Source: an uncultured bacterium (lineage in GTDB: Bacteria; Zixibacteria; MSB-5A5; JAABVY01; JAHJOQ01). Taken from it: a DNA stretch of 45,098 nucleotides. The notes beneath the pieces are model-generated. The model did no database searches and was not told the DNA's origin. It saw nothing but the letters and a program-made list of their open reading frames with translations. Made by a program: the position numbers and the translations under genes. Positions within the stretch are counted from its first letter, which is position 1. The number at the start of each line of letters is the position of its first letter. Positions 2,692 to 28,916 of the stretch are shown here, piece by piece. The DNA lies in assembly GCA_965369655.1 (NCBI GenBank), contig CBDUQR010000023.1, positions 1 through 45,098 of the forward strand, written 5' to 3'.

Positions 2692-4047
2692 ATGTTCGAT
2701 TCCAAATTCGCAGAGAAACTGATAGACGCGGCTCTCTCGCTGGGAGCCAAGGGCGCAGAGGTCTACTGCTGCAGATCGACGGAAACCGAGATTATGGTTT
2801 CCAACGGTCAGGCCGACATCGTCACGGTCAAATCCGACAATGGGTTCGCTGTTCGGCTTGTGAAGAATCAGCGCGTGGCATTCGGATCGTCGAATCAGTC
2901 CAATGAAAAGAACGCTATCGAGCTTGTGGCTGAACTGGCGAAGAGATGTGCGCTGCATTCGCCGGACGAAAACAATGTCATTCCGAAACCGGCGCGCGCG
3001 CCCGATTCTGCCATCGAGGAACCATTTGATCCGACACTCGCGACTCGTCCGCTATCTGCCAAGATCGAGATGGCACTCGATGTAGAACATGCTGCGATTG
3101 CATACGATCGGCGCATCACAGGTTTTATGTGGCTGCAATATGGCGATTCAGTTCAGGAGACAGCGATCTACAACAGCAACGGAATCTGCTGCGAATCGAC
3201 AGGCTCTGTCGCGACGGTATTCGCGTATGCAATCGCCGAAGACGGCGAAGCCGTGCAAACCGGACTGAATGTAGAAAGCTCCGGCTACTTTGACAGGCTC
3301 TCCGCGAAATCGATCGGAGAGACAGCCGCTGAATATGCCATCAGAATGCTGGGGGCGTCATCTGCCGAGACTGGTGAATACAGGATTGTGCTTCCGCCTG
3401 AGACATCATCGGCGTTTCTCCGGGCTCTGTCCGATATGCTCTCTGCGGATCGTGTACAGAAGGGCAAGTCGCCATTTCGGGACAAGTTGGGCGAGTTGGT
3501 CGCGTCAAATCTTATCACTGTGGTCGATGACGGCGTATTCCCGGGAGGCTTGGCTACGAGTCCGCATGACTCCGAAGGGATGCCATCACAGACGACAACA
3601 CTGATCGATAAGGGAGAGTTGAAGACATTCCTCTATGATTCATATTGCGCAAAAAAGGGAGGGACATCTTCTACGGGAAACGCTTCCCGCGCGAGCTATC
3701 ACTCTCAACCGGTAATTGCTCCGACAAATTTCTATCTGAAGCCTGGAGAACAGACGCGCGAGAGCATACTCAAATCGGTCTCGAACGGGCTGTATATTAC
3801 CGATCTCTCGGGACTGCACGCCGCAATAAATCCGACAACGGCGGATTTCTCAGTACCGGCCAAAGCCATTGTTGTCAAAGGCGGAGAGCTTTCGTACCCT
3901 GTCGACAATATCACGCTGTCGGGAAATCTGTTGGAACTTTTCCGAAATATTGATAGTATTGCTGATGATTTGGTGTGGGTAGCGGCCAACGGTATGATCG
4001 GCGCACCCACGATATCCATCGATAAGGTCAAAGTAACGGGAACCTGA
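2692..4047 (+). CDS. pmbA: PmbA/TldE family protein
   Basis: Directly follows tldD; DSEG.P, L.TFLYD, STGNASR, G.L.YPV.NITLSGNL motifs; no HExxxH. Confidence 0.9.
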   Translation: MFDSKFAEKLIDAALSLGAKGAEVYCCRSTETEIMVSNGQADIVTVKSDNGFAVRLVKNQRVAFGSSNQSNEKNAIELVAELAKRCALHSPDENNVIPKPARAPDSAIEEPFDPTLATRPLSAKIEMALDVEHAAIAYDRRITGFMWLQYGDSVQETAIYNSNGICCESTGSVATVFAYAIAEDGEAVQTGLNVESSGYFDRLSAKSIGETAAEYAIRMLGASSAETGEYRIVLPPETSSAFLRALSDMLSADRVQKGKSPFRDKLGELVASNLITVVDDGVFPGGLATSPHDSEGMPSQTTTLIDKGELKTFLYDSYCAKKGGTSSTGNASRASYHSQPVIAPTNFYLKPGEQTRESILKSVSNGLYITDLSGLHAAINPTTADFSVPAKAIVVKGGELSYPVDNITLSGNLLELFRNIDSIADDLVWVAANGMIGAPTISIDKVKVTGT

Positions 4048-4064
4048 GACCCGGGATTGCAGTA

Positions 4065-4853
4065 GTGGAAACGAAGCCAGATTCGACAGCCAAACATACC
4101 GGTGACAGAAAGCTCGGCGACGAGTGGCTCGACTGGGACGGCACAGTTGGCAGCACCAGTCCTGTCAGGCGAGGCATATTTGTCGGCATAGCTTCCCTTG
4201 CGGTCGGCGTGGTCATCGCTGTCGCATTTGTAGTACTGTGGTTGATTGAACCGAGGCTTCTAAGCATTAATCCAATCCTGTACAGCGTCGCCAGATGGTT
4301 AGTTTATCTTTTCTCCGGAGTCGTGGTTTTCTGGCTGCTTTTCTTTCTCCTCTCGGCGATGGCCGGCACATCAGTACTGGGGGGGCTGCTGATAGTTCCG
4401 CACCCAGTCAACTGGCTGCTAGCGATCGCGCTGAAGATCGGTAGTATTCTCGGCATATCCAAAGACAGGTTGTTCAACTCGTTTCTTAAAGTTCACAATA
4501 TCCTCCTGCCGTTCAGAAAAGTCTATTCTCCGGACGAACTTCTCGTGCTTTTGCCGCGATGTCTCACGAAGGATACTTTTGTGTACCTGCGGGAACTTCG
4601 CGACAAATTCAAGTTCAACATGACTACCGTCGGTGGTGGTCAGGAAGCTCGCAAGAAGATTCAGGAACTCAAACCGAAAGCGATCGTCGCGATTGCATGC
4701 GAGAGAGATCTCTTAAGCGGCTTTGTCGAGGTCAATCCACAGGTACCGGTGATGGGATTGCCGAACATAAGACCCGAAGGTCCCTGCAAGAATACTGAGA
4801 TCGACAGAGAAGAATTCCTAACTCTGATCAAGAAATTGTTGGCCGCGAACTAA
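4065..4853 (+). CDS. DUF116 domain membrane protein
   Basis: N-terminal TM helices, then LLVLLPRCL, GG..AR, AIVAIACERDL.SG and RPEGPCKNT motifs. Confidence 0.85.
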   Translation: METKPDSTAKHTGDRKLGDEWLDWDGTVGSTSPVRRGIFVGIASLAVGVVIAVAFVVLWLIEPRLLSINPILYSVARWLVYLFSGVVVFWLLFFLLSAMAGTSVLGGLLIVPHPVNWLLAIALKIGSILGISKDRLFNSFLKVHNILLPFRKVYSPDELLVLLPRCLTKDTFVYLRELRDKFKFNMTTVGGGQEARKKIQELKPKAIVAIACERDLLSGFVEVNPQVPVMGLPNIRPEGPCKNTEIDREEFLTLIKKLLAAN

Positions 4854-5958
4854 TCCGGTCGCAGGCTATCTGATTCAGCCGCCAGGCGAGTCTGGTCAGC
4901 GACAATCGCGGAGAGACATTTCGATAGAACAGCTTCCTCGTTTCGAGCAATTCCGACATCGCCAAATGAACAGCGCGTTCGGATCCGATGCTCGATGCAA
5001 TCTTCCGCAGCTCAGATTCGTAATCGTCGTTGAAAGCGTACGATTCTGACAAGTCGAGCTTGAAGATCATCACGTCACGGAGCAGGCTAGTCCATATCTG
5101 AATGTACTCCAGAGCTTCATCGCGATTGCGAAGATTGATGCCATCTGTCAGGGCCGAGAATGCCTCAGCCTTACCGCCCGCAGTGAAAACACCGAGCAGG
5201 TTCACCGCAATCTCCCTCTTCTGCTGGATATTGCTTCCAAAAAGACGAAACGCCTCGCTGAAACTGCCGCCCGAAAGCCGGGCGAACTGCTCTGCCTGCT
5301 CCCGTTGAACACCCTTTGCATCGGTGAGATATTCCCGGATTGACGATTCTGGAACAGGAAGGAAACGTACTCGCTGGCACCGCGAGATGACTGTCGCCGG
5401 AAGGCGGTTCACATTGCTCGTCGTCAGGATCAGAACTGTTTCTGGCGGAGGCTCCTCGATCGTTTTGAGCATGATGTCAAAGCTTGTATCCGGCATCCGT
5501 TCAACTTGATGGAAGATCGCCACCCTGTAGCCACCCTCGGCCGGCGTCGTATAGAGCGTCCTCTTGACCGCGCGAACATTGTCCAGGAGAATATTGGCGA
5601 CGCGGCCATATTCGACCGGCGAATGCGGGTCATCGATCTTGGCCTGCCTGAAGAACTGAGGGAATTCGGCTTCCTCCGACTTGTTCTTCGGCGAAGGCAT
5701 TGGAAAGAGAAGGTGAAGATCGGGGTGGATCAGTTTCCTCACCCTTGCGGCGCACGTATTTGATTCAGATTCTGACCGACAGGTGTGGCAGAGTATTATG
5801 GCGGCGAACTCCACCGCAGTGAGCCATTTGCCGTACCCATCATCTCCGGTGAAAAGATAGGCGGAGTGCAACCGGCCCGATCTGAGAGCATTCGTCAGCA
5901 GCCTGACGACTGCCGGTTGAAACGTGATGTCAATTTTGTACGATAATTCTCTGTCCAT
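4828..5958 (-). CDS. holB: DNA polymerase III delta-prime subunit
   Basis: RLHSAYLFTG..GYGK, HPDL, LKTIEEPP, LPATVISRCQ motifs. Confidence 0.9.
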   Translation of the reverse strand: MDRELSYKIDITFQPAVVRLLTNALRSGRLHSAYLFTGDDGYGKWLTAVEFAAIILCHTCRSESESNTCAARVRKLIHPDLHLLFPMPSPKNKSEEAEFPQFFRQAKIDDPHSPVEYGRVANILLDNVRAVKRTLYTTPAEGGYRVAIFHQVERMPDTSFDIMLKTIEEPPPETVLILTTSNVNRLPATVISRCQRVRFLPVPESSIREYLTDAKGVQREQAEQFARLSGGSFSEAFRLFGSNIQQKREIAVNLLGVFTAGGKAEAFSALTDGINLRNRDEALEYIQIWTSLLRDVMIFKLDLSESYAFNDDYESELRKIASSIGSERAVHLAMSELLETRKLFYRNVSPRLSLTRLAWRLNQIACDRISSRPTIS

Positions 5959-9983: not shown

Positions 9984-10651
9984 GCTTTAACTCCCGGAAG
10001 ATCGTAAATATCCCAGCCGAGTTCTCTGTACTTTTCCGGTCGCGTGGAGGTAATCAGGAGTGTGGTTCCAGCAAGGTTTTTTCTCCGAACCAACTCCAGC
10101 GCCACACCGAGATGAGTCTCGTCGAGCGCGCTGTCCGGGTCATCCCAAAGAAGGAATGCCGGATTTCTGGCGCAGGCCATCACCAGTTGGACAAGCTTCT
10201 GTTCCCCTTTCGACAAGGCTCCGGGGATTCGCCCCGCCTTTTCGACAAGCCCGAATTGCATCAGCATTGAATCGACTTCGCTTCTGTCCGGACGGATTCG
10301 CGACGACGACAACCTGACCGAAGCCGAGATATTGTCTCGCACCGATCGATCTGCGAGGTAGGTTGTGCGTTCGAGGATCATACCCCAGCCCGACAGCATT
10401 CTTGCTCTCTCTGTCGCATTCATTTCGCTGACTGATTTGCCGGAAACCCCGATCTCGCCTGAATCGGGATTCAGGAGTCCCGCTACGAGTCGAACGAGAG
10501 TCGTCTTGCCTGATCCGACCGGACCGGCAACGACCGCAACTCCGCCAACTGGCAGTGAGAACTCCAGGTTGCTAAACACCGGTTGTTCGGGATGATAGCC
10601 GAAGGTGACGTTTGCCACCTCCAGATAGATTCGCATGTCACTACTTGTCAC
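9980..10651 (-). CDS. ftsE: FtsE-like ABC ATPase with degenerate motifs
   Basis: Walker A GPVGSGKT; signature LSKGEQ; Walker B/D-loop LLWDDPDSALD; synteny with ftsX-envC. Confidence 0.72.
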   Translation of the reverse strand: MTSSDMRIYLEVANVTFGYHPEQPVFSNLEFSLPVGGVAVVAGPVGSGKTTLVRLVAGLLNPDSGEIGVSGKSVSEMNATERARMLSGWGMILERTTYLADRSVRDNISASVRLSSSRIRPDRSEVDSMLMQFGLVEKAGRIPGALSKGEQKLVQLVMACARNPAFLLWDDPDSALDETHLGVALELVRRKNLAGTTLLITSTRPEKYRELGWDIYDLPGVKA

Positions 10652-17467: not shown

Positions 17468-18892
17468 ATGGCTGAGAAGATGAAGATGTACCTTGCCGGT
17501 GAGTGGAAAGATTCAGACAAATCGATCGATGTCATCAATCCGTACGACAAATCGATCTATGGAACTGTCGCAGCGGCGTCACCTGACGATTTCACCGAGG
17601 CGATTGCGAAAGCAGACAAGGCATTCAAGGACTACCGTTTTTACCCAAGCTACAAGCGGTCCGAAGCGCTGCAGTTCATTGCATCGGAGATTGAGCGTCG
17701 CAAAGATGAACTGGCCGAGACAATCACATGCGAAATGGGGAAATCACTGGCCGATTCGCTCGGCGAAGTAGGCAGGGCAATTTCGGTGTTTAATATCTCC
17801 GCCGAAGAGGCCAGGAGGATGGGCGGAGAAGTAATGTCGCTCGACTGGCAGGCCGGATCCGAAGAACGATGGGGGATAGTCCGAAGATTCCCTATGGGAG
17901 TCGTTGCCGGAATATCGCCGTTCAACTTCCCTCTCAATCTGGTTGCACACAAGATCGGACCCGCGCTGGCTTCCGGCAATGCCATAGTGTTGAAACCAGC
18001 CTCCAAGACTCCAATAACAGCGTTGAAACTCGCGGAGATCATAGACAAGACTGATCTTCCGAAAGGTGTCTGCTCGATCCTGCCAGCGTCTTCGAAAGAT
18101 ACAACACCCCTGCTCGAAGACCCGCGTGTCAAGGTGATAACATTCACCGGTTCCTCGCCCGTCGGCTGGAAGATCAAAGCGATGTCCGGGAAGAAGCGTG
18201 TGGTGTTGGAACTCGGCGGAAACGCGGGTGTGATTGTGGCCGACGACGCCGACATCGATTACGCTGCCGAACGCATGGTGTTCGGCGGGTTCGCGGTGTC
18301 GGGACAGAGTTGTATTTCGGTACAGCGAATATTCCTGCATGAGAATATCTATGATGAATTCATTCGTATCTTCGCTGATAGAGTGAACAGTCTGAAGGTT
18401 GGGAATCCACTCGACCCGAGTGTCAGCATTGGCCCGGTCGTCGAGGAGAGCGAGGCAATCAGGATCGAGGAGTGGATCAACGAGGCTGTCACCGATGGCG
18501 CCAAAATCCTTGCGGGCGGCAAACGCGATGGTGGAGCCGTGCAGCCGACTATTCTCACCGATGTCAAGGCGGAGATGAAAGTCTGCTCGATGGAGGTGTT
18601 CGCACCGTTGGTCACAGTCTTCAAGTACACTGATTTCAAGAGCGCAGTTGACGAGGTCAACAGGTCTGACTTCGGCCTGCAGGCGGGGATTTTCACGAAT
18701 CGGCTGAAGGACATTTGGTACGCATACGAGCGGATCGAAGCTGGCGGAGTTGTTATCAACGATGTCCCGACATACCGCGCCGACCATCAGCCATACGGCG
18801 GCATGAAAGACTCAGGCTTTGGCCGCGAGGGTATACGCTATTCAATTGAAGACTACACCGATATCAAAATCCTCTCGATGAATCTGAAATAG
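17468..18892 (+). CDS. NAD(P)-dependent aldehyde dehydrogenase family protein
   Basis: PFNFPLNL, LKPAS.TP, FTGS, LELGGN, catalytic Cys in GQSCIS, EVFAP, PYGG.K.SG.GREG. Confidence 0.93.
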   Translation: MAEKMKMYLAGEWKDSDKSIDVINPYDKSIYGTVAAASPDDFTEAIAKADKAFKDYRFYPSYKRSEALQFIASEIERRKDELAETITCEMGKSLADSLGEVGRAISVFNISAEEARRMGGEVMSLDWQAGSEERWGIVRRFPMGVVAGISPFNFPLNLVAHKIGPALASGNAIVLKPASKTPITALKLAEIIDKTDLPKGVCSILPASSKDTTPLLEDPRVKVITFTGSSPVGWKIKAMSGKKRVVLELGGNAGVIVADDADIDYAAERMVFGGFAVSGQSCISVQRIFLHENIYDEFIRIFADRVNSLKVGNPLDPSVSIGPVVEESEAIRIEEWINEAVTDGAKILAGGKRDGGAVQPTILTDVKAEMKVCSMEVFAPLVTVFKYTDFKSAVDEVNRSDFGLQAGIFTNRLKDIWYAYERIEAGGVVINDVPTYRADHQPYGGMKDSGFGREGIRYSIEDYTDIKILSMNLK

Positions 18893-19595
18893 TGAGTTAC
18901 GGACTCGGCTAATCTTCGAGTCAGACAAACAGGTCCGGGCCGCGTGGAGATGCGGGCGGTTTACGCATGTCGTCGGGGACGGCGGGTAGTTCGTCGGCCT
19001 GGAAGCAGGGACCTGCGACTATGGTTTCCAGCAGTTTCGCTTGTTCGGGATAACCGTCGATTGTCGCTTCAAGCACCCAAAGCAGTTCGAGTAGTTCAGT
19101 GGTGAACTGGCTGGTCCAGCGTTCGGGGCGGATGTCGTCCAGCGGTGAGGATTTCTTACCCGCGCCTTTTTTCATGCGATACTTGAGCCATGACTGGACT
19201 ACCTTCAGCCCGGAGACCTCGAAATTGAAAACGTCGCAGGAGACCGGACGAAACTCACCATCGCCAATATGGAGTGTCCGCGTCGTGTCATTGTAATCGA
19301 ACTTCTCTGGATAGCTGTCCGATTCGCCGGACACAGCCTTGACACACTTCGTCCCACCCCGCGGGACATGACCGCGCTGCTTGCCTCTGGGGACGAAGCG
19401 TTCGCCATAAGTGTACAGCCAGAGGAGTCGCGCGCCGATGTCGCGGACCTGCTCGAACAACGCGATGTCCCTGGTGATCGGTACGCGTAGCTCGCGCGTC
19501 TCCAGTTCCTTCTCATATCGTGCGGTGAAGGCCGGTTGCGCCAGTGCGCCATAAACGTAAGCCAGAAAATCCTCCGGCGTGAGGTGGCACGGCGT

Positions 19596-19650
19596 GAAGT
19601 GGCACGGGCTTCCAGCCAGTGAATCATGGGCAGGATGCCCATGCCACTTC
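19596..19650 (+). repeat. 55-bp double-hairpin REP unit, copy 1 (inverted relative to copies 2-4)
   Basis: gaaGTGGcacgggc-ttcca-gccagtg-aat-catgggca-gga-tgcccatgCCACttc; read in the R-M frame as KWHGHPAHDSLAGSPCHF. Confidence 0.88.
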
Positions 19651-20361
19651 CTGCTGTATTCCTTGCCAAGCAGATCAAGTAGGCCGGGCAGGATGTTAGC
19701 CTCCGAAGCGTCAGCGGTGCGGTAAAGGGGAACAGTATCCTTTGCCCCCCGACCCGAGAAATGGTGCAGGTCTGGAATCAGTGCACAAGCCGTAGCGGCT
19801 GGTCCTTGTCCAAGAGGATGATTCAGGAGGCTCGTCAGATATATCTGCCGTTCGCCGTGAGCGCGCCAGAGAGCGGGACGGAAGTAATCGCCCAGTCGAC
19901 TGTCGGCAAAAACCTATTGCCGGTCAAATGAACGATAAGCGTAGCGTACGACACTCGGTGCAGAAGAATTGCAAGGCAATTGGTCGACAGGTTTCGCGGT
20001 TTCGTTAGTCTCTAACAATGATGAGCACTTGGAACTGATTTTGCGATCTCGCGTTTCCTTGAAAGCCATAACCATGTTTTCGGAGGTTAGCAATTTACGC
20101 CACCTAATCTCTAATGTGTCAGGGTTATGACAGATTGGCCAAGTGCGCTTCAACTGAACGCCGGAATGTTGCCACGGCATAAGGTCAGTAAGTAGCGGCC
20201 AGTCAAAGTAGTTGCCTTTGCAAGCCGGGCGGAACGGCGCTTGCCAGTCGTCGGGGCAGTCCTGCCATTTCACGGATTCAAAATCACCGATAGCGTCGAG
20301 TTCGGCGAGTTTGGTGTCGCGCGTCCCGTCGATACGGGCGTAATGGACCTTCGCGGGCGTT

Positions 20362-20416
20362 GAAGTGGCACGGGCATCTTGCCCGTGATTCATGGGCTGG
20401 AAGCCCATGCCACCTC
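20362..20416 (-). repeat. 55-bp double-hairpin REP unit, copy 2 (3' flank of RAYT)
   Basis: Minus strand gagGTGGcatgggc-ttcca-gcccatg-aat-cacgggca-aga-tgcccgtgCCACttc; encodes GGMGFQPMNHGQDARATS. Confidence 0.92.
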
Positions 20417-21015
20417 CAACCCACTTCCAATCTTCCAAGCCTGCCTTCTCAGGATTGCACAATACATACTCAAGGGAATGAGCAAGGTCCTGTTCATCTC
20501 GTATCAGATGATCATAGTACTCCGGCTGCCAGAAAGAGCCTTTGCGTTTCAGCGCTTTGTTAGCGTGGCTTGCGGTGAAGGACTTCCACGAATGCAGAAT
20601 ATTCGGCAATTCATGCTTTGGCAATGGTTGAACAACTACGTGAACATGGTTGGGCATTATGCACCAAGCCAGAAGTCGATAGCGCTCGCCGTCGAAATGC
20701 CTGAGCGCGTTGTCAATGATTTGAGCGATTTTGTCTTGCTTCATCCAGCACGCGCCGTGACCCGCGTCCATGTATTTATCAACCTTCTCGGAGAAAAGGT
20801 ATTGCAGTCTCTTTTCCTCGTCTTCAGAGAGGGAGCGGTTCATCTGCTTTGATATTTGAATGATGTTTTCGCGTTCAGCAAGCCATCCTTCGACAACAGA
20901 CTTCGGAAGAGAATCGCTGAGACGAAAGGTTACAGAATAGATCGAATGGTCCTTCGTCCAGTGCGGGAGGTATGCCCCCTGGCGGATTTTAACAGAGGAT
21001 TCCTCATTTGAAGTG
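20417..21015 (-). mobile_element. REP-associated tyrosine transposase (RAYT, Y1/HUH) domain embedded in frame in the R-M gene
   Basis: LPHW...YSVTFRLSDSLP, AWCIMPNHVH (HUH), ILHSWKSFTA, FWQ.EYYDHLIRDE, EYVLCNP..AGL (catalytic Tyr). No stop codon of its own. Confidence 0.9.
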
Positions 21016-21070
21016 GAAGTGGTATGGCCATCCTGGCCATGATTCACGGTCTGGAAGCCCGTGCCACCTC
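21016..21070 (-). repeat. 55-bp double-hairpin REP unit, copy 3 (5' flank of RAYT)
   Basis: Minus strand gagGTGGcacgggc-ttcca-gaccgtg-aat-catggcca-gga-tggccataCCACttc; encodes GGTGFQTVNHGQDGHTTS. Confidence 0.9.
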
Positions 21071-21276
21071 TGACGGTCACGGCGATGGCGACGGGCGTCT
21101 GGATGGCGAAGACATTATCAGTCTTACGAGTGCCACGCCCCTCACCACCAAGATCGAGAATCCAGATTTCATCACATACACGTCGCATGTGCTCGCGCAT
21201 CCCACAGAAGGCGTCGCCGTCGAGGTAGCTTGAGGCGCTGATAAAACTGACGACGCCCGGCCCGCCGGTGGGTTTG

Positions 21277-21331
21277 GAAGTGGCATGGCCATCATGGCCA
21301 TGATTCATGGGCTGGAAGCCCATGCCACTGC
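21277..21331 (-). repeat. 55-bp double-hairpin REP unit, copy 4
   Basis: Minus strand gcaGTGGcatgggc-ttcca-gcccatg-aat-catggcca-tga-tggccatgCCACttc; encodes SGMGFQPMNHGHDGHATS. Confidence 0.9.
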
Positions 21332-23380
21332 CGCCGCCTTCTCTTGTTTCATGCTCGAAGACCTTCCAGAGCGCCCAACGCCAGAAATAGACATACAGGT
21401 TATAAGCATTCTTGACGTGGATACCATGACCGGCGGCAATGACTGGATCAATGAAGTTTCTGAAAATCGAGTGTCGTTCTCTTTCTGTCAATCTCGCTTT
21501 AGCAGACTTGAGTTTCCTTTTCTTCCCTTTCTTATCCTTTATCGTATCTGCGGGTAAAGGATCACCAAAACGAACCCATCCTCCATACCGCGATAAGTTT
21601 TCCTCATCTTTGGTATCTACTGCCTCATGCCGGTCATAGGGCGGATTGCCGAGGCAGACGATGACAGGAACCTCCGCTTTCACACGGGTTGCTTTCTTAT
21701 GTTGTTCGGCGAACGCTTTTTGGGCAAATCCCATCACCGTCTGCGGTGGCTTAGCGTTCGGGCTTTCGAGTGTGTCAGTCAGGTAGATGTGCGTGCCGTC
21801 TTTGGGTAGTTCCGCGCCACGGTCTCGCAGGGCGCGACTGACGCGCAGTTCGGTCACGGCGTATGGACCGACCATGAGTTCAAATCCGTATAGGTTGTTG
21901 GCTAAAGCAGTCGCCTGACCTGCAACGGCACCACCGCCCTGTTCGGACTCGATTCTGCCAAGCGCGTGTTCGATGACGCCCAGTAAATAAGTTCCTGTTC
22001 CGGCAGCCGGATCAAGAGTTATTACGCTGGGGTCGGCGAAGCCGAGCGGTTTGTTCAGCCGGTTGACGAGCAGGTCGTCGATCAGGCGCACCTGTGCGCG
22101 GACGACTTCAATGGGAGTGTAGTAGGCACCGTAATCCTTGCGCAACTTGGGGTCGTAAACCGCGAGGAAATCTTCGTAGAAATAGAGCCAGGGGTCCTCT
22201 GGACCGGTCAGACTTGCCGTAGGTATGAAGCCAATAACTCTAAGGATCAGATTGAGCGAAGCGGAGATTTCTTCCCGTGCATTCGTATCAGTCAACACCT
22301 GAAGCGCACGAGAGAGTAGACTGTGCTGTGCATCAAGTGCCTTTTCTGCGCTATCGAGCGTTAGCGGATCGGCACCTTCGCTGCGTCCTAGCAGCAGAGC
22401 GAAAGCCACGGTTTGGGCATAGGCGTCGGCGAATTGTTCGTCCGATGCATCAGGGAAGAGGAGTTCACGCCAGTCCTTCGCCAGTTGGACGAGAGGCGAA
22501 TCCGAATCTTTGAGCGCGTCGGTCACATCATCGCGTAACATTCGACAGAGAGGAGCTATCATTGCCGCAAAGTCCTTGAGATCGATCTTCCCATTGCGGC
22601 CCGTGGGGATGATGGGTTCCCAGGACAGGTAGTCGTGCAAAAGGCGCTCGATTGCATGGGCATCAGGCGGGGTAGCTGCTTTCTTTCCCTCTTTGGAAAT
22701 ATCGCCTGAGAGACAGACGATCTTGTCTACAAGTACACCACTGCGATAGAGCGCCCATTCGTTGCCGTCGGTGTACAGGATATTAGGGATGGAAGAGAAA
22801 CGTTTCCATTGGTCGCGATTGTGGCCTTTGAAGCGCTTTACATTTGCGCCAACGCCGGGAGCCTTGAGTTCGACATAACCTGAAAGAAGCTTGTTGTGAT
22901 GAACAGCGTAGTCAGGTCTCCCGAGACGATCAGGCAGAGACGTTTCGCCCGTGCAGACCAGATTCAAACGCAACGCGTCGGCAACGCTCGCCATGAAGTT
23001 CTCGAACGGCGCGCGCAATTGGTCTTCCCGTTCGCCGCGCGTCATCTGCGACATTTTGTTCGTGACGGTCTGGGCTAAAGCTTGAAGGGCACCCAATATC
23101 GATTCGTCATTGGTCATGCAGAATGTCCCTGATCATTTCGTTGGTGTCTTCTCGCATCCCCATCTTCATGGTTGCTCGGCAATCATGCGCATAGATCAAT
23201 AAACTATGCAGAGTCTATGCGCATGTGTCAAGCGCCAAAATGAGCATTCTGCACTTGGGTTATCAATGTCCGCAAAGCTATATCCAGATATTGCTCCTCC
23301 ATTTCGCCCTTGACTTCACACGTACATCGCGTACCATATGGCGTTGTTTTGGTATAGATAGACGATCCCCGGAGGAATCG

Positions 23381-25460: not shown

Positions 25461-28400
25461 CTACTTCTGGGATGCTTTTCCCAGCAAGAGATCGTAGTGC
25501 TTGAGAGTGAGGCTGATAGCATCATCCAAATCGAACAGGCCGCTGTCATCAGTTCGTGCCCCCGCGAAAGTTGTCAGGATGTATTCAGCATCATCTTTCT
25601 CAATTCCATACAGGATGAAATAAGCCGCATCGAGTTCAGCTAACAGATTCTTCCGTTCATCAGGTTTCCATTTGTGAACCGGCGGATCGAATCCTGCTGC
25701 CTCGGCAAGAGGGATCATATCGTTGCTGGTGCAGGACAATTTGAGAACGCGGTCAGAAATCCATTTCTCAAGCGTCTGACGGCGATCCCACGGGCAGCGG
25801 TCAGAGTATCGGTCAGGCGACAATATGGGAAGCTGCTCGACGATAAAGAAATTGAGATGAACACCTCCAACCTTCTGACGAGCTACGAAATCAAGAACAA
25901 CTGTATTCAGATTAGCGAGTAGACAAGACTGCCTGCGGGCAGAAATTGCTGCATCAGTCTCAATGAGTGGTGCAGAATTCATAACCGCAGAGAGAGGTAA
26001 TTGTGCCGCTATCATCGTTCGTCGGTTTGTAGGGCTGGTAATGTCCTTGTAGCTCAGGATGCCTCGTTGCATAGTGCGCGAAACAGACGGAGGGATTTCT
26101 GCTGAGTTCACCCACCATCTTGGTTCTGGGACAAACTCCGGATTCTGATGCTCCACAAGACTTGCGGGGATAGTCTGTCCCTGCCTCATCCAATTGCTGG
26201 GATCAATCCTGATACTGGCAGCCCTATGATCATACATCTGAACCATCTTTGCTTCGTACAACGGTAGGTATGTGCTCTTTCCCTTTATCCATCGGTTCCC
26301 GACACGGCGGAATTTCTTTTCTTTTAGTTTCTCGGCATTTATGAACAGTTCCGCATCGTTGGTCTGATGGAACATAGTGTGGAATTTGATTCCCCACGGA
26401 TTCCCGCCTTCTTCGCGGTTTCTGTCTATGAGAATGGGTACGCGCCTGTAGATGCTTTTCGTTAGTTCCGCATCGCGTTGCGATCTGAAGATCGGGCAGG
26501 TGCGAGTATTTGGATTGAGCAGTTTGATGTCGGCGGGAGAAAGCTTGATATGGCGGCTCTTGTCTTCCAGTTCATCCACCCGGTGCGCGAAAAAGACAAA
26601 GTCCATGGATTTCGCTTTCTGTTTGCTGCCGCCAAAGAGAAGAACACAGAATTTATATCTGCTATCAACGTCCGGAAATACCTTCTTGCGATTCTCGAAG
26701 TCGTACAGTCCGGATAGTGACTCTGAAGAAACGAGAGCGTTGAAGAATTCTTTGGTCGTATTATCAGTTGCGATCCCGGATGGTACGAGCAAGCCGACGA
26801 GGCCGTTTGGCGCAACGATGGTACGTGCAAGTTCTGCGAACACGGAATATGTATTGACATCGCCCTTTCCCGTTAACGGGTATCGATCAGATTCGCGGAT
26901 GTATTTCAGCGCTCCTTCAGCATTTTCTTTTGCCTGAATGTATCGCTCGTACAACTCCGGGTTGCTGGTCTTGAGATCGTCTACCATCTGACGGCGTGTG
27001 GCGGCATTTACAGCCGAAGCGATCTTTGGATCGCTCGCATCGAAGAACTCCCGTTCCTGAAGCTTAATCCTCTCCCACGGTGGATTGCCAATCACGCAAT
27101 CGAATCCGTTTTCATCGCGCTCGAACACATCGGTAAATATCTCTCTCCAGTTCAGAGCACGGGCATCTACTTCCGGATCATCAACGAGACTGTTTCCATG
27201 AACGACATTCCTGGAAAGATCTGCCAGTGATTTGTCGGGTTGCGCGGAGCGAATCCACAGAGCGAGTTGAGATATTTCAACAGCTTCCTGAGACAGGTCG
27301 ACTCCGAACAGATTGTCATTCAGGATGAATTCCGGCACCTGATCCGCAAGCTGACTGTCGTCCTTACCGGCATGGTACACTATTTGATCGATTATGAAAT
27401 GGTACTTCTCCTCGAAGATGCTATATGCGCTGATAAGAAACGCGCCGCTTCCGCAGGCAGGATCCACGACCTTGATAGTCCGTACAAGGCTAAGGCATTC
27501 ACGCCAGAAATCGGCAGTTTCCTTTGATTGTCCTTCATCGCTTTGCGCATCAATCTGCACACCACGATTCCGGGCAAGCGCTTGAATTCTATCGTCGATG
27601 ATCTTACCGACAGTGTTGTGTGTGATGAATTCGGTGAATTCGGATGGAGTGTAGTAAACGCCGTGTCGCTTACGTTCGGCGGACTTGGTCATCCGGGGCT
27701 GCTCGTCATCAGTCGTAACCGCATCGAATAGCCCTGTCAACTTGATGCGCTCCAAATCGTTGATGGACTTCTCAAAGAGATGACCGAGGACTTCGACATT
27801 CACCTCGTCCCTGAAATCGTATTTACCGACGATCTCAAAGAAATCAGTCCACTCGTCATCGAGTTTCAGATTGTCAACTTCCGGATCTTCCCTGAAAAGA
27901 CCACCGTCAAATGGAGGAATACGGAGTCTCTTGTTCCCCTGGTCAACACTTCTAAAGAGATCGAGGAAGTTCTTCCATTTTGGATGCGTTACCTGGTCAA
28001 ATGGCGCCGATTGGCTGTACGCCTTGTGAATCGAGTTCTGAGGCAGCAGGTTACGATCTTCACAGAAAGCGACGAAAATGATCCGGTCCAGCAGCTTCTG
28101 CGCAATGCGAATTGCTTCGTCCTGTGATTTCTTATGCTGTGGTCCAGTCAGATGCTTGATGAGCTTCACGCGGTTTCTGTGGTAACTGTCGTACAGCTCA
28201 TCGCCAACCTCCTGTTGTCGCGCTCCGGTCTTTTCGAGAAGAACCAATGCCCTGGGCTTCTGTGCAGTCGTGCCGGGGAGAAGTCCTCCTCTTTCAAGAA
28301 CATAATAGAATTGCCTGAAGATTTCTTCTCTATGCAAGTCCTGCAATGTGAATAGCTGGTATGTTCTTGGCGTATGTTCGCGGTGATAGAGGCGGAAGCT

Positions 28401-28916
28401 CACGAAGTTGCACACGATACCCCACGGGCATTGTGGGATCGCATTCATATAATCCCAGCACTGCTGAACTGCGGTTCGTCCTCTTGACCTGTCCCGGTCA
28501 AGGTTGATATTCGGCCCTTTGAATTCGATTACGGCCACAGGTGAAGCCTTCTCCTGATGGCCAAAGTTCCCTATGGCTGCGTCTGCCTCACCTCCATTAA
28601 CATTGTACTTTACTTCAATATCCCAGTTCTCGTCCCCTTTTGAGAAGAGTTTGTATCCCAGTGCTTCGCCGAATACTTCAGTAAGAAACTCAGCTTCGAG
28701 GTTGCTTTCTTTCCGGGTCTTGAGTTTACCTCTCATTTCCAGATCAGCCCATCTGGACATGATCTGAAATGCTCTATCCCAGGCTTCCCCGCGGAGTCTT
28801 TTCTCTACGGACTCCTGTTCAAGTAATCTGGGCAGAAACAGATTCTGATGGTGGCGGTTCTCACCATACTTCGTCTTGTCAGGGTCAGGAAACAACGTCT
28901 CTTGATTCGGATTCAA
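25461..28916 (-). CDS. Type IIG-like fused restriction endonuclease/N6-adenine methyltransferase
   Basis: N-terminal E...ADAAIG...VIEFK nuclease, RIIF.AFCEDR, LG.LFE, G.YYTP, DPACGSGAFL, GNPPW, plus a C-terminal target-recognition region; 1151 aa, uninterrupted. Confidence 0.88.
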   Translation of the reverse strand: MNPNQETLFPDPDKTKYGENRHHQNLFLPRLLEQESVEKRLRGEAWDRAFQIMSRWADLEMRGKLKTRKESNLEAEFLTEVFGEALGYKLFSKGDENWDIEVKYNVNGGEADAAIGNFGHQEKASPVAVIEFKGPNINLDRDRSRGRTAVQQCWDYMNAIPQCPWGIVCNFVSFRLYHREHTPRTYQLFTLQDLHREEIFRQFYYVLERGGLLPGTTAQKPRALVLLEKTGARQQEVGDELYDSYHRNRVKLIKHLTGPQHKKSQDEAIRIAQKLLDRIIFVAFCEDRNLLPQNSIHKAYSQSAPFDQVTHPKWKNFLDLFRSVDQGNKRLRIPPFDGGLFREDPEVDNLKLDDEWTDFFEIVGKYDFRDEVNVEVLGHLFEKSINDLERIKLTGLFDAVTTDDEQPRMTKSAERKRHGVYYTPSEFTEFITHNTVGKIIDDRIQALARNRGVQIDAQSDEGQSKETADFWRECLSLVRTIKVVDPACGSGAFLISAYSIFEEKYHFIIDQIVYHAGKDDSQLADQVPEFILNDNLFGVDLSQEAVEISQLALWIRSAQPDKSLADLSRNVVHGNSLVDDPEVDARALNWREIFTDVFERDENGFDCVIGNPPWERIKLQEREFFDASDPKIASAVNAATRRQMVDDLKTSNPELYERYIQAKENAEGALKYIRESDRYPLTGKGDVNTYSVFAELARTIVAPNGLVGLLVPSGIATDNTTKEFFNALVSSESLSGLYDFENRKKVFPDVDSRYKFCVLLFGGSKQKAKSMDFVFFAHRVDELEDKSRHIKLSPADIKLLNPNTRTCPIFRSQRDAELTKSIYRRVPILIDRNREEGGNPWGIKFHTMFHQTNDAELFINAEKLKEKKFRRVGNRWIKGKSTYLPLYEAKMVQMYDHRAASIRIDPSNWMRQGQTIPASLVEHQNPEFVPEPRWWVNSAEIPPSVSRTMQRGILSYKDITSPTNRRTMIAAQLPLSAVMNSAPLIETDAAISARRQSCLLANLNTVVLDFVARQKVGGVHLNFFIVEQLPILSPDRYSDRCPWDRRQTLEKWISDRVLKLSCTSNDMIPLAEAAGFDPPVHKWKPDERKNLLAELDAAYFILYGIEKDDAEYILTTFAGARTDDSGLFDLDDAISLTLKHYDLLLGKASQK

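What the first reader, a model, noticed from the sequence alone, without database searches (positions are those of the whole stretch)
20362..21070. REP-RAYT-REP cassette carried in frame inside a restriction-modification enzyme (top candidate for an undescribed system)
Seen: a ~200-aa RAYT domain with intact HUH (MPNHVH) and catalytic Tyr (EYVLCNP) sits between R-M residues ...QTPVAIAVTVR and TPAKVHYARIDG.... It has no stop codon and no evident start or RBS. Both flanks are directly oriented 55-bp double-hairpin REP units that are themselves translated. Established: RAYTs are Y1/HUH ssDNA transposases normally encoded as stand-alone genes flanked by intergenic REPs. Inference: this is either a frame-preserving stealth element that rides inside a host protein and borrows its promoter and translation, or a domesticated nuclease-MTase-RAYT fusion in which RAYT remodels its own host gene.
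Basis: partly seen in the sequence, partly recalled or inferred. Interest (0 to 1): 0.9.

Follow-up and report, generated by a model that had tools for sequence, protein, structure and literature searches.

The report
Transposase cassette read inside restriction gene
A small mobile-DNA unit (a hairpin-cutting transposase gene plus its hairpin repeats) sits in the reading frame of a restriction-modification enzyme gene and is read as part of it; this habit is widespread for this transposase family and I could not find it described in print.

Summary
Observation confirmed. On the minus strand, one 1,398-codon frame (23117-18921) encodes a type IIG-like restriction-modification enzyme. A REPIN-RAYT-REPIN cassette (21070-20355) lies in frame in the loop between the methylase and specificity domains. 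Two more REPINs (21335-21270, 19657-19589) are also translated.

The cassette is neither chance nor decay.
- Five other homologues carry it at the same site; three are full length with no stop. Others have a solo REPIN or an 8-9-residue loop there.
- The RAYT is under strong purifying selection (pN 0.12, pS 0.73).
- REPIN codons are conserved as hairpins with compensatory changes.
- Close relatives of this RAYT sit in frame inside many other host proteins: 38 of the best 150 cluster representatives. Hosts include DinG, HsdR, methylases, ValRS, IspG and the only LeuRS of three genomes.

Best reading (0.7): a frame-preserving REPtron, tolerated in surface loops and expressed through the host gene. 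There are no expression data. I found no paper describing this. This scan noted the same habit before on other DNA (priA, sua5).

The parts
19914..23117 (-). Host gene, first part. It has 1067 codons: a PD-(D/E)xK-like N-terminus (RPDYAV...VELKAPG), N6 adenine methylase (NPPY at 21636-21647), the embedded cassette, and Type_ISP_C positions 1-88. It ends at the in-frame TAG.
19914..19916 (-). In-frame TAG nonsense codon, specific to this window. Homologues have F, Y, H, K, L or W at this position.
   Evidence: Present with 0 differences in contigs of runs X2 and X3. TAG is an ordinary stop in this genome: it ends 289 of 877 frames of 400 codons or more.
18921..19913 (-). Same frame after the TAG: 330 codons covering the rest of the specificity domain (Type_ISP_C 91-342 of 342).
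21270..21335 (-). REPIN at site B (double-foot REP doublet), read in frame as GGSGMGFQPMNHGHDGHATSKPTG. It adds 25 residues relative to empty homologues.
21009..21070 (-). Upstream REPIN of the cassette (site C), read as GGTGFQTVNHGQDGHTTS. Its stems carry mismatches. It holds the only in-frame start-like codon (GTG, 21045-21047).
20418..21017 (-). RAYT (TnpA-REP-like Y1/HUH transposase) domain, 200 codons, with no start or stop of its own. Motif positions: YLPHW 20958-20972, HUH 20634-20651, WQ 20508-20534, Tyr motif 20451-20471.
   Evidence: AF2 mean pLDDT 82; top fold match 4ER8_A, E 3.7e-7; pN 0.123 against pS 0.734 versus L001.
20355..20422 (-). Downstream REPIN of the cassette, read as GGGMGFQPMNHGQDARATS. 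It is direct to the upstream one, 654 nt (218 codons) away start to start.
19589..19657 (-). REPIN at site D, in the opposite orientation and read in the other open frame as KWHGHPAHDSLAGSPCH. The same site is occupied in all four cassette-bearing full-length frames. In other Type_ISP_C enzymes this site holds the whole RAYT cassette.
23203..23231 (-). Sigma-70-like match (TTGACA-17-CATAGT) upstream of the host start. It is a candidate host promoter only.
   Evidence: 4 matches in the region against 2.9 expected, so it carries little weight.

Best explanation
This is a REPtron: a RAYT/TnpA-REP gene with its flanking REP doublets (REPINs). It lives in frame inside a host gene.

The host is a single-chain type IIG-like restriction-modification enzyme (nuclease-like N-terminus, N6 methylase, Type_ISP_C specificity domain). 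The cassette replaces an 8-9-residue charged loop between a beta-strand at the end of the methylase part and the first strand of the specificity part.

Anatomy (shown):
- The cassette has no stop, and no start apart from the GTG/ATG that each REPIN carries.
- The REPINs are open in this frame.
- In models the REPIN-coded peptides are disordered Gly/Thr/His-rich linkers, and the RAYT is a separate folded domain.

Mechanism (inferred):
- The element is transcribed and translated through the host gene.
- Only copies that keep the frame and sit in tolerant loops survive selection on the host.
- The RAYT stays catalytically competent.
- The REPINs stay functional as DNA hairpins.
- The two direct, in-phase REPINs allow in-frame loss of the RAYT, leaving a solo REPIN.
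- The cassette spreads between alleles with its flanks by homologous recombination.

In this window the host was recently disabled by a TAG 151 codons after the cassette's last codon. The RAYT-bearing 1067-residue product can still be made.
For: Anatomy.

Same cassette, same site:
- P0003, P0004 and P0005 are 1369-1378 aa with no stop and are 64-70% identical. Fragments P0245 and P0248 carry it too.
- Read directly on DNA in L001-L003.

Alternative states of the same loop:
- Empty homologues have 8-9 charged residues there.
- A solo in-frame REPIN occupies site C in 5 of 119 R-M homologues. In all, 10 of 119 carry at least one REP peptide.

Selection (WIN against L001):
- RAYT, 189 codons: pN 0.123, pS 0.734, dN/dS about 0.05.
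- R-M N part, 576 codons: about 0.10.
- REPIN codons: pS only 0.15-0.21, so they are constrained as nucleic acid.

Hairpins: 20 hairpins (15 distinct) from four loci are 100% paired. In 2 of 7 pairs every change is on both sides. 0 of 500 shuffles reach the observed score.

Fold:
- RAYT model has pLDDT 82 with REPIN peptides below 50. The best PDB match is TnpA-REP 4ER8.
- In the full-length model, strands 676-681 and 925-929 flank the cassette.

Family-wide embedding:
- 1692 proteins over 350 aa hit this RAYT.
- Of 119 examined, 97 have it internal.
- Of the best 150 representatives among 1.84 billion, 58 are over 350 aa and 38 have it internal.
- On the DNA of 42 species-representative genomes, 19 are internal. 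Hosts include ValRS, LeuRS, IspG, DinG, R-M enzymes and chorismate-binding enzymes.
- In three genomes the only strong LeuRS match is the RAYT-bearing frame.

Assembly: contigs of 3 runs bridge all junctions.
Against: - There are no expression data of any kind: no RNA holder is listed and there is no proteomics. Translation as one chain is therefore inferred.
- In this window the host frame is broken by a TAG, so host function cannot be claimed here.
- Every REPIN read in this frame carries an in-frame ATG or GTG, so the RAYT could be made on its own.
- Synonymous sites are near saturation (pS 0.72-0.73), so dN/dS values are rough.
- All cassette-bearing R-M genes come from metagenome bins. 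L002 and L003 come from one co-assembly.
- The three read sets are contigs of one study, and one may be the source.
- The cassette replaces 7-9 host residues rather than simply inserting, and no transposition chemistry I know of explains that.
- The full-length AF2 model is poor (mean pLDDT 64.6).
- The RAYT tree does not resolve the R-M group: 6 rows need 5 changes, though starred branches allow 1.
Confidence: 0.7

Rival explanations
1. Gene within a gene. The RAYT is made mainly on its own, by internal initiation at the ATG or GTG that every REPIN carries in this frame. The frame continuity matters only because it keeps the host protein whole.
For: - There is an in-frame GTG at 21045-21047 inside the upstream REPIN.
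- Many stand-alone-sized relatives start inside or just after a REP peptide, e.g. P0128, P0146, P0149, P0177 (MLKIRQGAYLPHW) and P0134.
Against: - No stop follows the RAYT, so such a product would still run on into the host C-terminus.
- No promoter-like match lies upstream of the RAYT (weak evidence).
- Many stand-alone-sized ORFs begin far upstream and read through several REP peptides.
- This reading does not exclude the main reading. It changes only which product carries the activity.
Confidence: 0.25
2. Domesticated functional fusion. The RAYT domain gives the R-M enzyme, and other DNA enzymes, a useful activity such as ssDNA nicking or switching of its own specificity region. It is kept for the host's benefit.
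For: - Hosts are mostly DNA enzymes. My flank-motif labels (which also counted the window's own P0001) put 75 long proteins in that class: 44 DinG, 12 PF01555 methylases, 6 HsdR, 10 Type_ISP_C R-M and 3 MmeI-like. One search examined 119 long proteins.
- The RAYT is under strong purifying selection.
- RAYTs cluster by host on the tree: DinG, 44 rows with 5 changes; 0 of 200 shuffles as low.
Against: - The cassette is patchy among close R-M relatives. The nearest N-part relatives of the window and of P0003 are empty genes (79% and 88% identity), and 3 changes are forced.
- 109 of 119 R-M homologues have no REP peptide.
- The same family sits in ValRS, LeuRS, IspG, MetH, TatD and chorismate-binding enzymes, where a DNA activity makes no sense.
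- The sample is ranked by likeness to this RAYT, so the host tally is biased.
Confidence: 0.12
3. Decay. The R-M gene is a dead gene being colonised by REPs and a RAYT, and the open frame is a coincidence.
For: - There is a TAG in the host frame.
- The gene holds 4 of the 9 REP-like places in the genome that lie outside the separate 18-copy repeat.
- The upstream REPIN has stem mismatches.
Against: - The same arrangement occurs in three full-length, stop-free homologues at 64-70% identity.
- pN is far below pS in the RAYT and in all host parts, including after the TAG.
- The 330 codons after the TAG are still open and score E 1.3e-53.
- Four separate inserts all keep the frame.
Confidence: 0.05
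4. Assembly or binning artefact that joins a RAYT locus to an R-M gene through shared REPs.
For: The window is a metagenome contig, and REPs are repeats at which assemblers can switch.
Against: - Independent Logan contigs of runs X2 and X3 cross each REPIN junction and the TAG with 0 differences. One X1 contig spans 18800-23200.
- The same joints occur in unrelated MAGs from other studies.
Confidence: 0.02

Closest known systems
REPtron of E. coli: TnpA-REP (RAYT) with flanking REPs, PDB 4ER8
   Same: - Y1/HUH fold (top Foldseek match).
- HUH and Tyr motifs present.
- The gene is bracketed by its own REP hairpins carrying a 5' GT[AG]G foot.
- Single copy of this subfamily in the genome.
   Different: - The classical REPtron is a stand-alone gene between intergenic REPs.
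- Here the gene has no start or stop of its own and is read, with its REPINs, inside a host protein.
- This RAYT has about 100 extra N-terminal residues (YLPHW strand plus two long helices).
- NCBIfam REP_Tyr_transpos scores 78.9 bits, just under its cut-off of 80.
'Double-foot' REPs and in-frame REP insertions of TnpA-REP subclass 2.4 (Quentin, Siguier, Chandler, Fichant 2018, PMC6006769; passages read)
   Same: - The REPIN has a 5' GTGG foot and a 3' CCAC foot.
- REPs inserted in coding sequence do not break the frame.
- NHVH and WQ motifs are present.
   Different: - That paper describes REPs inside the tnpA gene itself and cites REPs in unrelated genes. It does not describe the transposase gene inside a host gene.
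[quoted passage not shown]
- I could not assign a subclass.
In-frame palindromic elements: Rickettsia RPEs and intragenic REPs (Di Nocera et al. 2013, PMC3733652; passages read)
   Same: - Short palindromic repeats are translated inside genes that probably still work.
- Replication and repair genes are favoured.
- The same site is reused in related genes.
   Different: Those elements are short non-coding repeats only. Here the autonomous partner (the transposase gene) is carried in frame as well, adding about 230 residues.
Inteins with homing endonucleases
   Same: - A selfish element with its own nuclease-type enzyme is carried in frame inside conserved host proteins, often DNA and translation enzymes.
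- It is expressed through the host gene.
- Filled and empty alleles occur at the same site.
   Different: - There is no Hint/splicing domain (Pfam finds none) and there are no splice-junction residues, so the insert presumably stays in the mature protein.
- The enzyme is a Y1/HUH ssDNA transposase.
- The identical tract between L002 and L003 extends about 50 codons beyond the cassette on each side. That is what recombination gives, and it is not a clean homing footprint.

Membership tests
RAYT / TnpA-REP (REP-associated Y1 HUH transposase) | HUH metal-binding motif and catalytic Tyr motif | tested here: met
   NHVHVV at aa 823-828 and EYVLCNP at aa 883-889 of P0001. Both are invariant in a 66-sequence alignment (H141, H143, Y201, N205 and P206 of A2).
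RAYT / TnpA-REP (REP-associated Y1 HUH transposase) | Curated profile match | tested here: inconclusive
   Pfam Y1_Tnp scores 37.7 bits against a cut-off of 23, so it is met. NCBIfam REP_Tyr_transpos scores 78.9 bits against a cut-off of 80, so it falls just short.
RAYT / TnpA-REP (REP-associated Y1 HUH transposase) | TnpA-REP / IS200-type fold | tested here: met
   AF2 model with pLDDT 82. Foldseek rank 1 is 4ER8_A at E 3.7e-7, followed by the ISDra2, IS200 and IS608 transposases.
RAYT / TnpA-REP (REP-associated Y1 HUH transposase) | Gene flanked by its own REP hairpins, with copies elsewhere in the genome | tested here: met
   - Flanking REPINs.
- Other copies of the same type at C31:8814, C37:11637 and C62:10043, plus 18 copies of a variant.
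- The population is small: 27 places in 2.99 Mb.
RAYT / TnpA-REP (REP-associated Y1 HUH transposase) | Stand-alone gene with its own start and stop (classical REPtron layout) | tested here: not met
   No stop, and no ATG or TTG. The only start-like codon is a GTG inside the REPIN. The gene is read within the 1,398-codon host frame.
RAYT / TnpA-REP (REP-associated Y1 HUH transposase) | Cleavage and rejoining of REP ssDNA | not testable with these tools
   Needs purified protein and REPIN oligonucleotides.
Type ISP restriction-modification enzymes (LlaGI/LlaBIII type) | Type_ISP_C specificity domain and N6 methylase with NPPY | tested here: met
   PF18135 covers positions 1-88 before the TAG and 91-342 after it. 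PF02384 is present, and NPPY is at aa 491-494.
Type ISP restriction-modification enzymes (LlaGI/LlaBIII type) | Superfamily-2 helicase-like ATPase motor between nuclease and methylase (a feature I recall as defining; it comes from no call) | tested here: not met
   No helicase or ATPase family appears in the Pfam or NCBIfam output for P0001. I therefore call it type IIG-like with an ISP-type C domain, not a type ISP enzyme.
Type ISP restriction-modification enzymes (LlaGI/LlaBIII type) | Intact reading frame | tested here: not met
   In-frame TAG at 19914-19916.
Inteins | Hint splicing domain and conserved splice-junction residues | tested here: not met
   Pfam finds no Hint or intein family. 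The junctions read VR|GG and ATS|TP.
In-frame REP/RPE-type palindromic insertions | A palindromic repeat inside an ORF that keeps the frame and sits in a variable loop, with empty sites in homologues | tested here: met
   Sites B, C and D in the window, each aligned against empty homologues. Solo REPINs occupy the same sites in 7 of 119 homologues.

The most novel reading that the evidence does not exclude
This RAYT clade is a distinct kind of selfish element: an 'intein without splicing'. On this reading:
- Its REPINs have evolved into translatable, stop-free linkers that also supply a start codon.
- It has given up its own promoter, start and stop.
- It persists by living as an extra domain in surface loops of host proteins, including sole-copy essential ones.
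- Being tethered to DNA motors and DNA-modifying enzymes (DinG, PriA, HsdR, R-M enzymes) gives the transposase access to single-stranded DNA.
- The two in-phase REPINs make its loss reversible and harmless, leaving a solo REPIN.
Probability: 0.3. Interest if true: 0.9.

Novelty: new variant of a known kind. Interest (0 to 1): 0.78.

Why it matters
RAYTs and REPs are textbook 'extragenic' elements, and the field treats RAYTs as single-copy, stand-alone, domesticated genes. Here the whole unit is carried inside proteins, in frame and under purifying selection. It occurs in many lineages and many hosts, including the only leucyl-tRNA synthetase of three genomes.

If the fused proteins are made and work, three things follow:
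1. This is a way for a DNA transposon to neutralise the cost of inserting into genes without RNA or protein splicing.
2. It is a natural source of large domain insertions and flexible linkers in bacterial proteins.
3. It is a systematic source of annotation errors. One carrier R-M gene is named 'transposase' by its source, and other carriers bear only the host enzyme's name.

It also offers a test bed for the unresolved question of what RAYTs do. The tethered enzyme and its substrate hairpins sit together in one gene that can be expressed.

Tried and rejected
- **Expression.** No RNA holder is listed for the stretch, so nothing can be said about expression.
- **Empty-site or excised alleles.** No joints were seen in the contigs of 3 runs. 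Contigs drop rare variants, so this says nothing either way.
- **Internal promoter.** The consensus scan found 4 sigma-70-like matches against 2.9 expected. None lies upstream of the RAYT, and one lies inside it at 20624-20596. This carries no weight, since the organism's promoters are unknown.
- **TAG recoding.** Rejected: TAG ends 289 of 877 frames of 400 codons or more in this genome.
- **Foreign origin by composition.** GC is 0.545 for the gene against 0.51 for the window, and GC3 is 0.56-0.62 against 0.64 in the neighbours. No clear signal.
- **Full-length structure.** The AF2 model of P0001 is poor (mean pLDDT 64.6, pTM 0.44). I used it only for local secondary structure and confidence. 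I could not measure the distance between the RAYT's two ends because the tools give no coordinates.
- **Single origin of the cassette in the R-M family.** The N-part FastTree (117 rows) needs 3 changes. These genes are mosaic: the specificity-domain types shuffle independently, and L002/L003 share a 100% identical tract. I therefore cannot tell repeated gain from recombination.
- **TnpA-REP subclass.** The motifs fit Quentin's 2.4 and 2.7 about equally.
- **Other embedded copies in this genome.** The four other Y1-like hits are stand-alone genes of 164-187 aa, or a fragment, from another subfamily.
- **Literature.** Seven full-text searches found no description of a RAYT gene in frame inside a host gene. 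I also read passages of three papers. The library lacks most subscription journals.
Full report
**What is in the window**

The window is the whole contig C23 of a 2.99-Mb, 100-contig genome. Earlier notes of this scan call the organism a Zixibacteria bacterium; I did not test that.

On the minus strand an ORF runs 23117..19914 (1067 aa, P0001). Pfam finds N6_Mtase, Y1_Tnp (37.7 bits, cut-off 23) and Type_ISP_C, but only positions 1-88 of 342. The ORF ends at a TAG. The same frame then continues for 330 codons (19913-18921), which are Type_ISP_C positions 91-342, E 1.3e-53. The host gene is therefore one 1,398-codon frame with a single nonsense codon.

TAG is an ordinary stop in this genome: it ends 289 of 877 frames of 400 codons or more. 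Homologues have F, Y, H, K, L or W at the position. The TAG is therefore a nonsense change specific to this population.

No helicase-type motor was found. I call the host a type IIG-like single-chain restriction-modification enzyme with an ISP-type C domain.

The neighbours are housekeeping genes: nadC, a histidine kinase, an aldehyde dehydrogenase and a class II tRNA synthetase. A second, MmeI-like R-M gene lies at 25461-28916.

**The repeats**

Four copies of one 55-59-nt unit lie in the window, and all four are inside this frame:
- 21270-21335 (site B);
- 21009-21070 and 20355-20422, which bracket the RAYT (site C);
- 19589-19657 (site D), in the opposite orientation.

Each unit is a REP doublet (REPIN) with a 5' GTGG foot and a 3' CCAC foot. 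Each folds as an outer stem plus two 7-bp hairpins, or as one long hairpin. Free energies are -15.9 to -22.2 kcal/mol, z is -3.6 to -5.1, and 0 of 200 shuffles fold as well.

Two of the three frames are open on each strand of the unit. Three copies are read as G-x-G-F-Q-P-x-N-H-G-x-D-x-x-A-T-S. The inverted copy is read as K-W-H-G-H-P-A-H-D-S-L-A-G-S-P-C-H. The two units flanking the RAYT are direct repeats 654 nt (218 codons) apart, start to start.

The genome holds only 27 REP-like places:
- 4 in this gene;
- 3 free copies of the same type (C31, C37, C62);
- 2 fragments;
- 18 copies of a variant embedded in a longer conserved repeat.

**The RAYT**

Residues 701-900 carry the motifs YLPHW, NHVH (HUH), FWQPEYYDH and EYVLCNP. 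With a 66-sequence alignment, AlphaFold gives mean pLDDT 82 for the cassette. The REPIN-coded ends (residues 1-32 and 227-230) are below 50. The best PDB match is the E. coli REP-associated tyrosine transposase bound to a REP hairpin (4ER8_A, E 3.7e-7), followed by the ISDra2, IS200 and IS608 transposases.

The cassette has no stop. Its only start-like codon upstream of the conserved N-terminus is a GTG at 21045-21047, inside the REPIN. This is the only member of its subfamily in the genome; the other Y1-like genes are stand-alone and 25-31% identical.

**Not an artefact**

Logan contigs of three runs from one marine-sediment study were laid on 18800-23200. One X1 contig spans the whole stretch with 0 differences, and X1 may be the source of the window. 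Contigs of X2 and X3 cross each REPIN junction and the TAG with 0 differences. No joints were seen, but contigs cannot show rare alleles.

**Not chance or decay**

A search with the whole protein found thousands of R-M homologues of about 1100-1130 aa that lack the insert. It also found three that carry R-M plus Y1_Tnp at full length with no stop:
- P0003, 1378 aa, 70% identical, from a Sedimentisphaerales MAG;
- P0004 and P0005, 1373 and 1369 aa, 64% identical, from Brocadiaceae MAGs.

Two fragments, P0245 and P0248, have the same junctions. In all of them the cassette follows ...TPVAIA(V/I)(A/T)VR and precedes PA(K/R)VHY(A/T)RI(E/D)G. Empty homologues have an 8-9-residue charged loop there, such as SKEANKDKA or TKKAKKDKP.

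Site D is filled in all four cassette-bearing full-length frames and empty in the three empty genes aligned. Site B is filled in the window, half-filled in P0003 and empty in P0004 and P0005. P0003 has a further REPIN elsewhere. Each insert replaces 1-9 host residues rather than simply adding to them.

Among 119 R-M homologues scanned, 10 carry at least one REP peptide:
- 3 carry the cassette;
- 5 carry a solo in-frame REPIN at site C, for example VR-TS-TGVSPVENHGRDGHAT-PAKVHY (also read on the DNA of L044);
- the rest carry solo REPINs at sites B or D.

A solo REPIN at site C is what a deletion between the two direct, in-phase REPINs would leave. In other Type_ISP_C enzymes (P0259, P0271, P0280) the whole cassette sits at the equivalent of site D, just before FGPEDVF.

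**Selection**

I read the frames stop to stop on the DNA of L001-L003 and computed Nei-Gojobori values.

Window against L001:

| Segment | Codons | pN | pS | dN/dS |
|---|---|---|---|---|
| RAYT | 189 | 0.123 | 0.734 | about 0.05 |
| R-M N part | 576 | 0.149 | 0.673 | about 0.10 |
| Upstream REPIN | 18 | | 0.207 | 0.6 |
| Downstream REPIN | 19 | | 0.147 | 1.1 |

- The host part after the TAG has dN/dS of 0.11-0.12.
- Window against L002: RAYT pN 0.199 and pS 0.719; REPIN pS 0.26-0.40.
- Synonymous sites outside the REPINs are near saturation, so the ratios are rough. The contrast is still clear: the RAYT is kept as a protein and the REPINs are kept as nucleic acid.

In line with this, 20 hairpins (15 distinct) from the four loci are 100% paired. 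In two of the seven stem pairs every change is on both sides (13 cells), and 0 of 500 shuffles reach the observed score. Two caveats apply. I picked the hairpins with a pattern that fixed five of the pairs and left those two free. Degenerate hairpins, such as those of the window's upstream REPIN, were not included.

**History within the R-M family**

The genes are mosaic. The window's N part is closest to an empty gene (P0007, 79%), and P0003's N part is closest to another empty gene (P0088, 88%). On a FastTree of 117 N parts the cassette needs 3 changes. Three specificity-domain types are distributed independently of the cassette.

L002 and L003 are 100% identical in nucleotides from about 50 codons before the cassette to about 55 codons after it. 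Their N parts are about 90% identical and their specificity regions 40-60%. That is a recombination tract, or possibly a co-assembly effect, since both bins come from one co-assembly. It is not a clean transposition footprint.

I cannot separate repeated gain at one site from recombination.

**The wider family**

- Stand-alone-sized relatives (60-81% identical) very often have ORFs that read through REP peptides at one or both ends.
- A search restricted to longer proteins returned 1692 hits over 350 aa.
- Of 119 long proteins examined (116 best-listed hits of that search plus P0003, P0004 and P0005), the RAYT is internal in 97 (80 aa or more on both sides), at the N end in 14 and at the C end in 8.
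- Hosts include DinG/Rad3 helicases (44 by my flank label), HsdR, PF01555 and DUF1156 methylases, MmeI-like and ISP-type R-M enzymes, AlaRS, ValRS, IspG, MetH, NadE, TatD and Sua5. One HsdR is named by its source as from Schlesneria sp. DSM 10557.
- A search with no length limit over 1.84 billion cluster representatives gave 12,218 hits at E of 1e-3 or better. Of the best 150, 58 exceed 350 aa, 38 have the RAYT internal, 31 have host sequence on one side only and 81 are of stand-alone size.
- Read directly on the DNA of 42 species-representative genomes, 19 RAYTs lie in frames with 80 or more codons on both sides.
- Pfam on ten of those frames gave ISP-type R-M, MmeI-like, DinG (two), chorismate-binding enzyme (two), ValRS, IspG, LeuRS and one with no family.
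- In three Verrucomicrobia genomes the only strong match to the LeuRS editing domain (over 200 bits) lies in an open frame of 1082, 1092 or 1070 aa. Those are the lengths of the RAYT-bearing frames of L035, L036 and L038. MAG completeness was not given. If no second copy is hidden, the essential enzyme works with the insert.
- On a RAYT tree of 240 rows the domains cluster by host: DinG needs 5 changes for 44 rows, and 0 of 200 shuffles are as low overall. The R-M group is unresolved.

**Mechanism**

Shown:
- the anatomy;
- the conserved site;
- the alternative loop states;
- protein-level constraint on the RAYT;
- nucleic-acid-level constraint on the REPINs;
- disordered REPIN peptides and a folded RAYT in models;
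- beta-strands at residues 676-681 and 925-929 on either side of the cassette, in an otherwise poor full-length model (mean pLDDT 64.6).

Inferred:
- The unit is transcribed and translated through the host gene.
- Only frame-keeping copies in tolerant loops survive.
- The RAYT is active.
- Loss of the RAYT through the two direct REPINs leaves a solo REPIN.
- The cassette spreads between alleles by homologous recombination.

In this window the TAG lies 151 codons after the cassette's last codon. The R-M enzyme is probably inactive here, while a 1067-residue RAYT-bearing product can still be made.

The main open rival is independent initiation at the REPIN's in-frame GTG/ATG.

**What is known**

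- The passages I read in Quentin et al. 2018 (PMC6006769) describe double-foot REPs and in-frame REP insertions inside tnpA-REP genes. [quoted passage not shown]
- The passages I read in Di Nocera et al. 2013 (PMC3733652) describe REPs inside ORFs, often in replication and repair genes, and cite the in-frame Rickettsia RPEs.
- Corneloup et al. 2021 (PMC8266576) yielded no passage on intragenic copies.
- Seven full-text searches gave no description of a RAYT gene carried in frame inside a host gene. From memory, the Nunvar 2010, Ton-Hoang 2012, Messing 2012 and Bertels 2017 papers do not describe it either; I did not reread them.
- This scan has noted the same habit before on other DNA: a RAYT module inside priA (e1-3624908) and a RAYT read as the tail of Sua5 (e1-4067132). 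My searches test the general claim independently and agree with it.

**Verdict**

This is a real, non-trivial feature. It is a new variant of a known kind of element, a REPtron living in frame inside host proteins. The window's copy sits in an R-M gene that has just been broken by a nonsense codon.

Noticed in passing
window 25461-28916 (-): A second single-chain R-M gene (MmeI_N, MmeI_Mtase and Eco57I domains; 1151 aa) lies 2.3 kb from the first, with a class II tRNA synthetase gene between them. It contains no REPIN.
   Followed up: partly
G000: 18 places, e.g. C1:10258-10303, C3:42695-42740, C3:43990-44035, C7:9859-9904: A variant REPIN (feet GTGG...CTAC) is embedded in a longer conserved AT-rich repeat (ATAAAAAGCGGCAAATTAAATC ... 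ACTACAAAAGAATATATGAAC). The repeat lies directly upstream of unrelated ORFs, whose open frames read through it as ...GMGILPMIHGQDARAT...MNIYPGHD.... Several copies sit within a few hundred bases of contig ends, so the repeat probably breaks the assembly.
   Followed up: partly
G000 C62:9831-11132 (-), repeat at 10043-10084: Another in-frame REPIN in the same genome. A 434-codon histidine-kinase-like frame reads it as SEWHGHPGHESRAGSH, near its ATPase end.
   Followed up: no
G000 C37:11637-11701: A free REPIN of the same type lies just upstream of an acyl-carrier-protein gene (MSVETKVKDIIVEQLG...).
   Followed up: no
L002:~3800-4900 and L003:~3800-4900: The R-M genes of two Brocadiaceae bins share a tract that is 100% identical in nucleotides. 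It covers about 345 codons: the cassette plus about 50 codons on each side. Around it the flanks are about 90% and 40-60% identical. This is recent gene conversion or a co-assembly effect.
   Followed up: partly
L047 around 4001-4120: In a delta-proteobacterial MAG the homologous R-M gene loses its frame exactly in the site C loop (…AVRSGKAEEGQARKGSLRPH*). The loop is therefore also a place where these genes break.
   Followed up: no
window 20418-20429 (-) and the REPIN feet: The codons of the nearly invariant RAYT C-terminal motif W-K-W (TGGAAGTGG) have the same letters as the extended REPIN foot (GGAAGTGGCA). The end of the protein may overlap, or derive from, a REP foot.
   Followed up: no
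loci L004-L042: Relatives of this RAYT occur in MAGs whose record titles name Planctomycetota, Verrucomicrobiota, Acidobacteriota, Hydrogenedentota, Zixiibacteriota, Ignavibacteriales and Peregrinibacteria. A distant relative (36% identical) occurs in a Spirosoma isolate.
   Followed up: no
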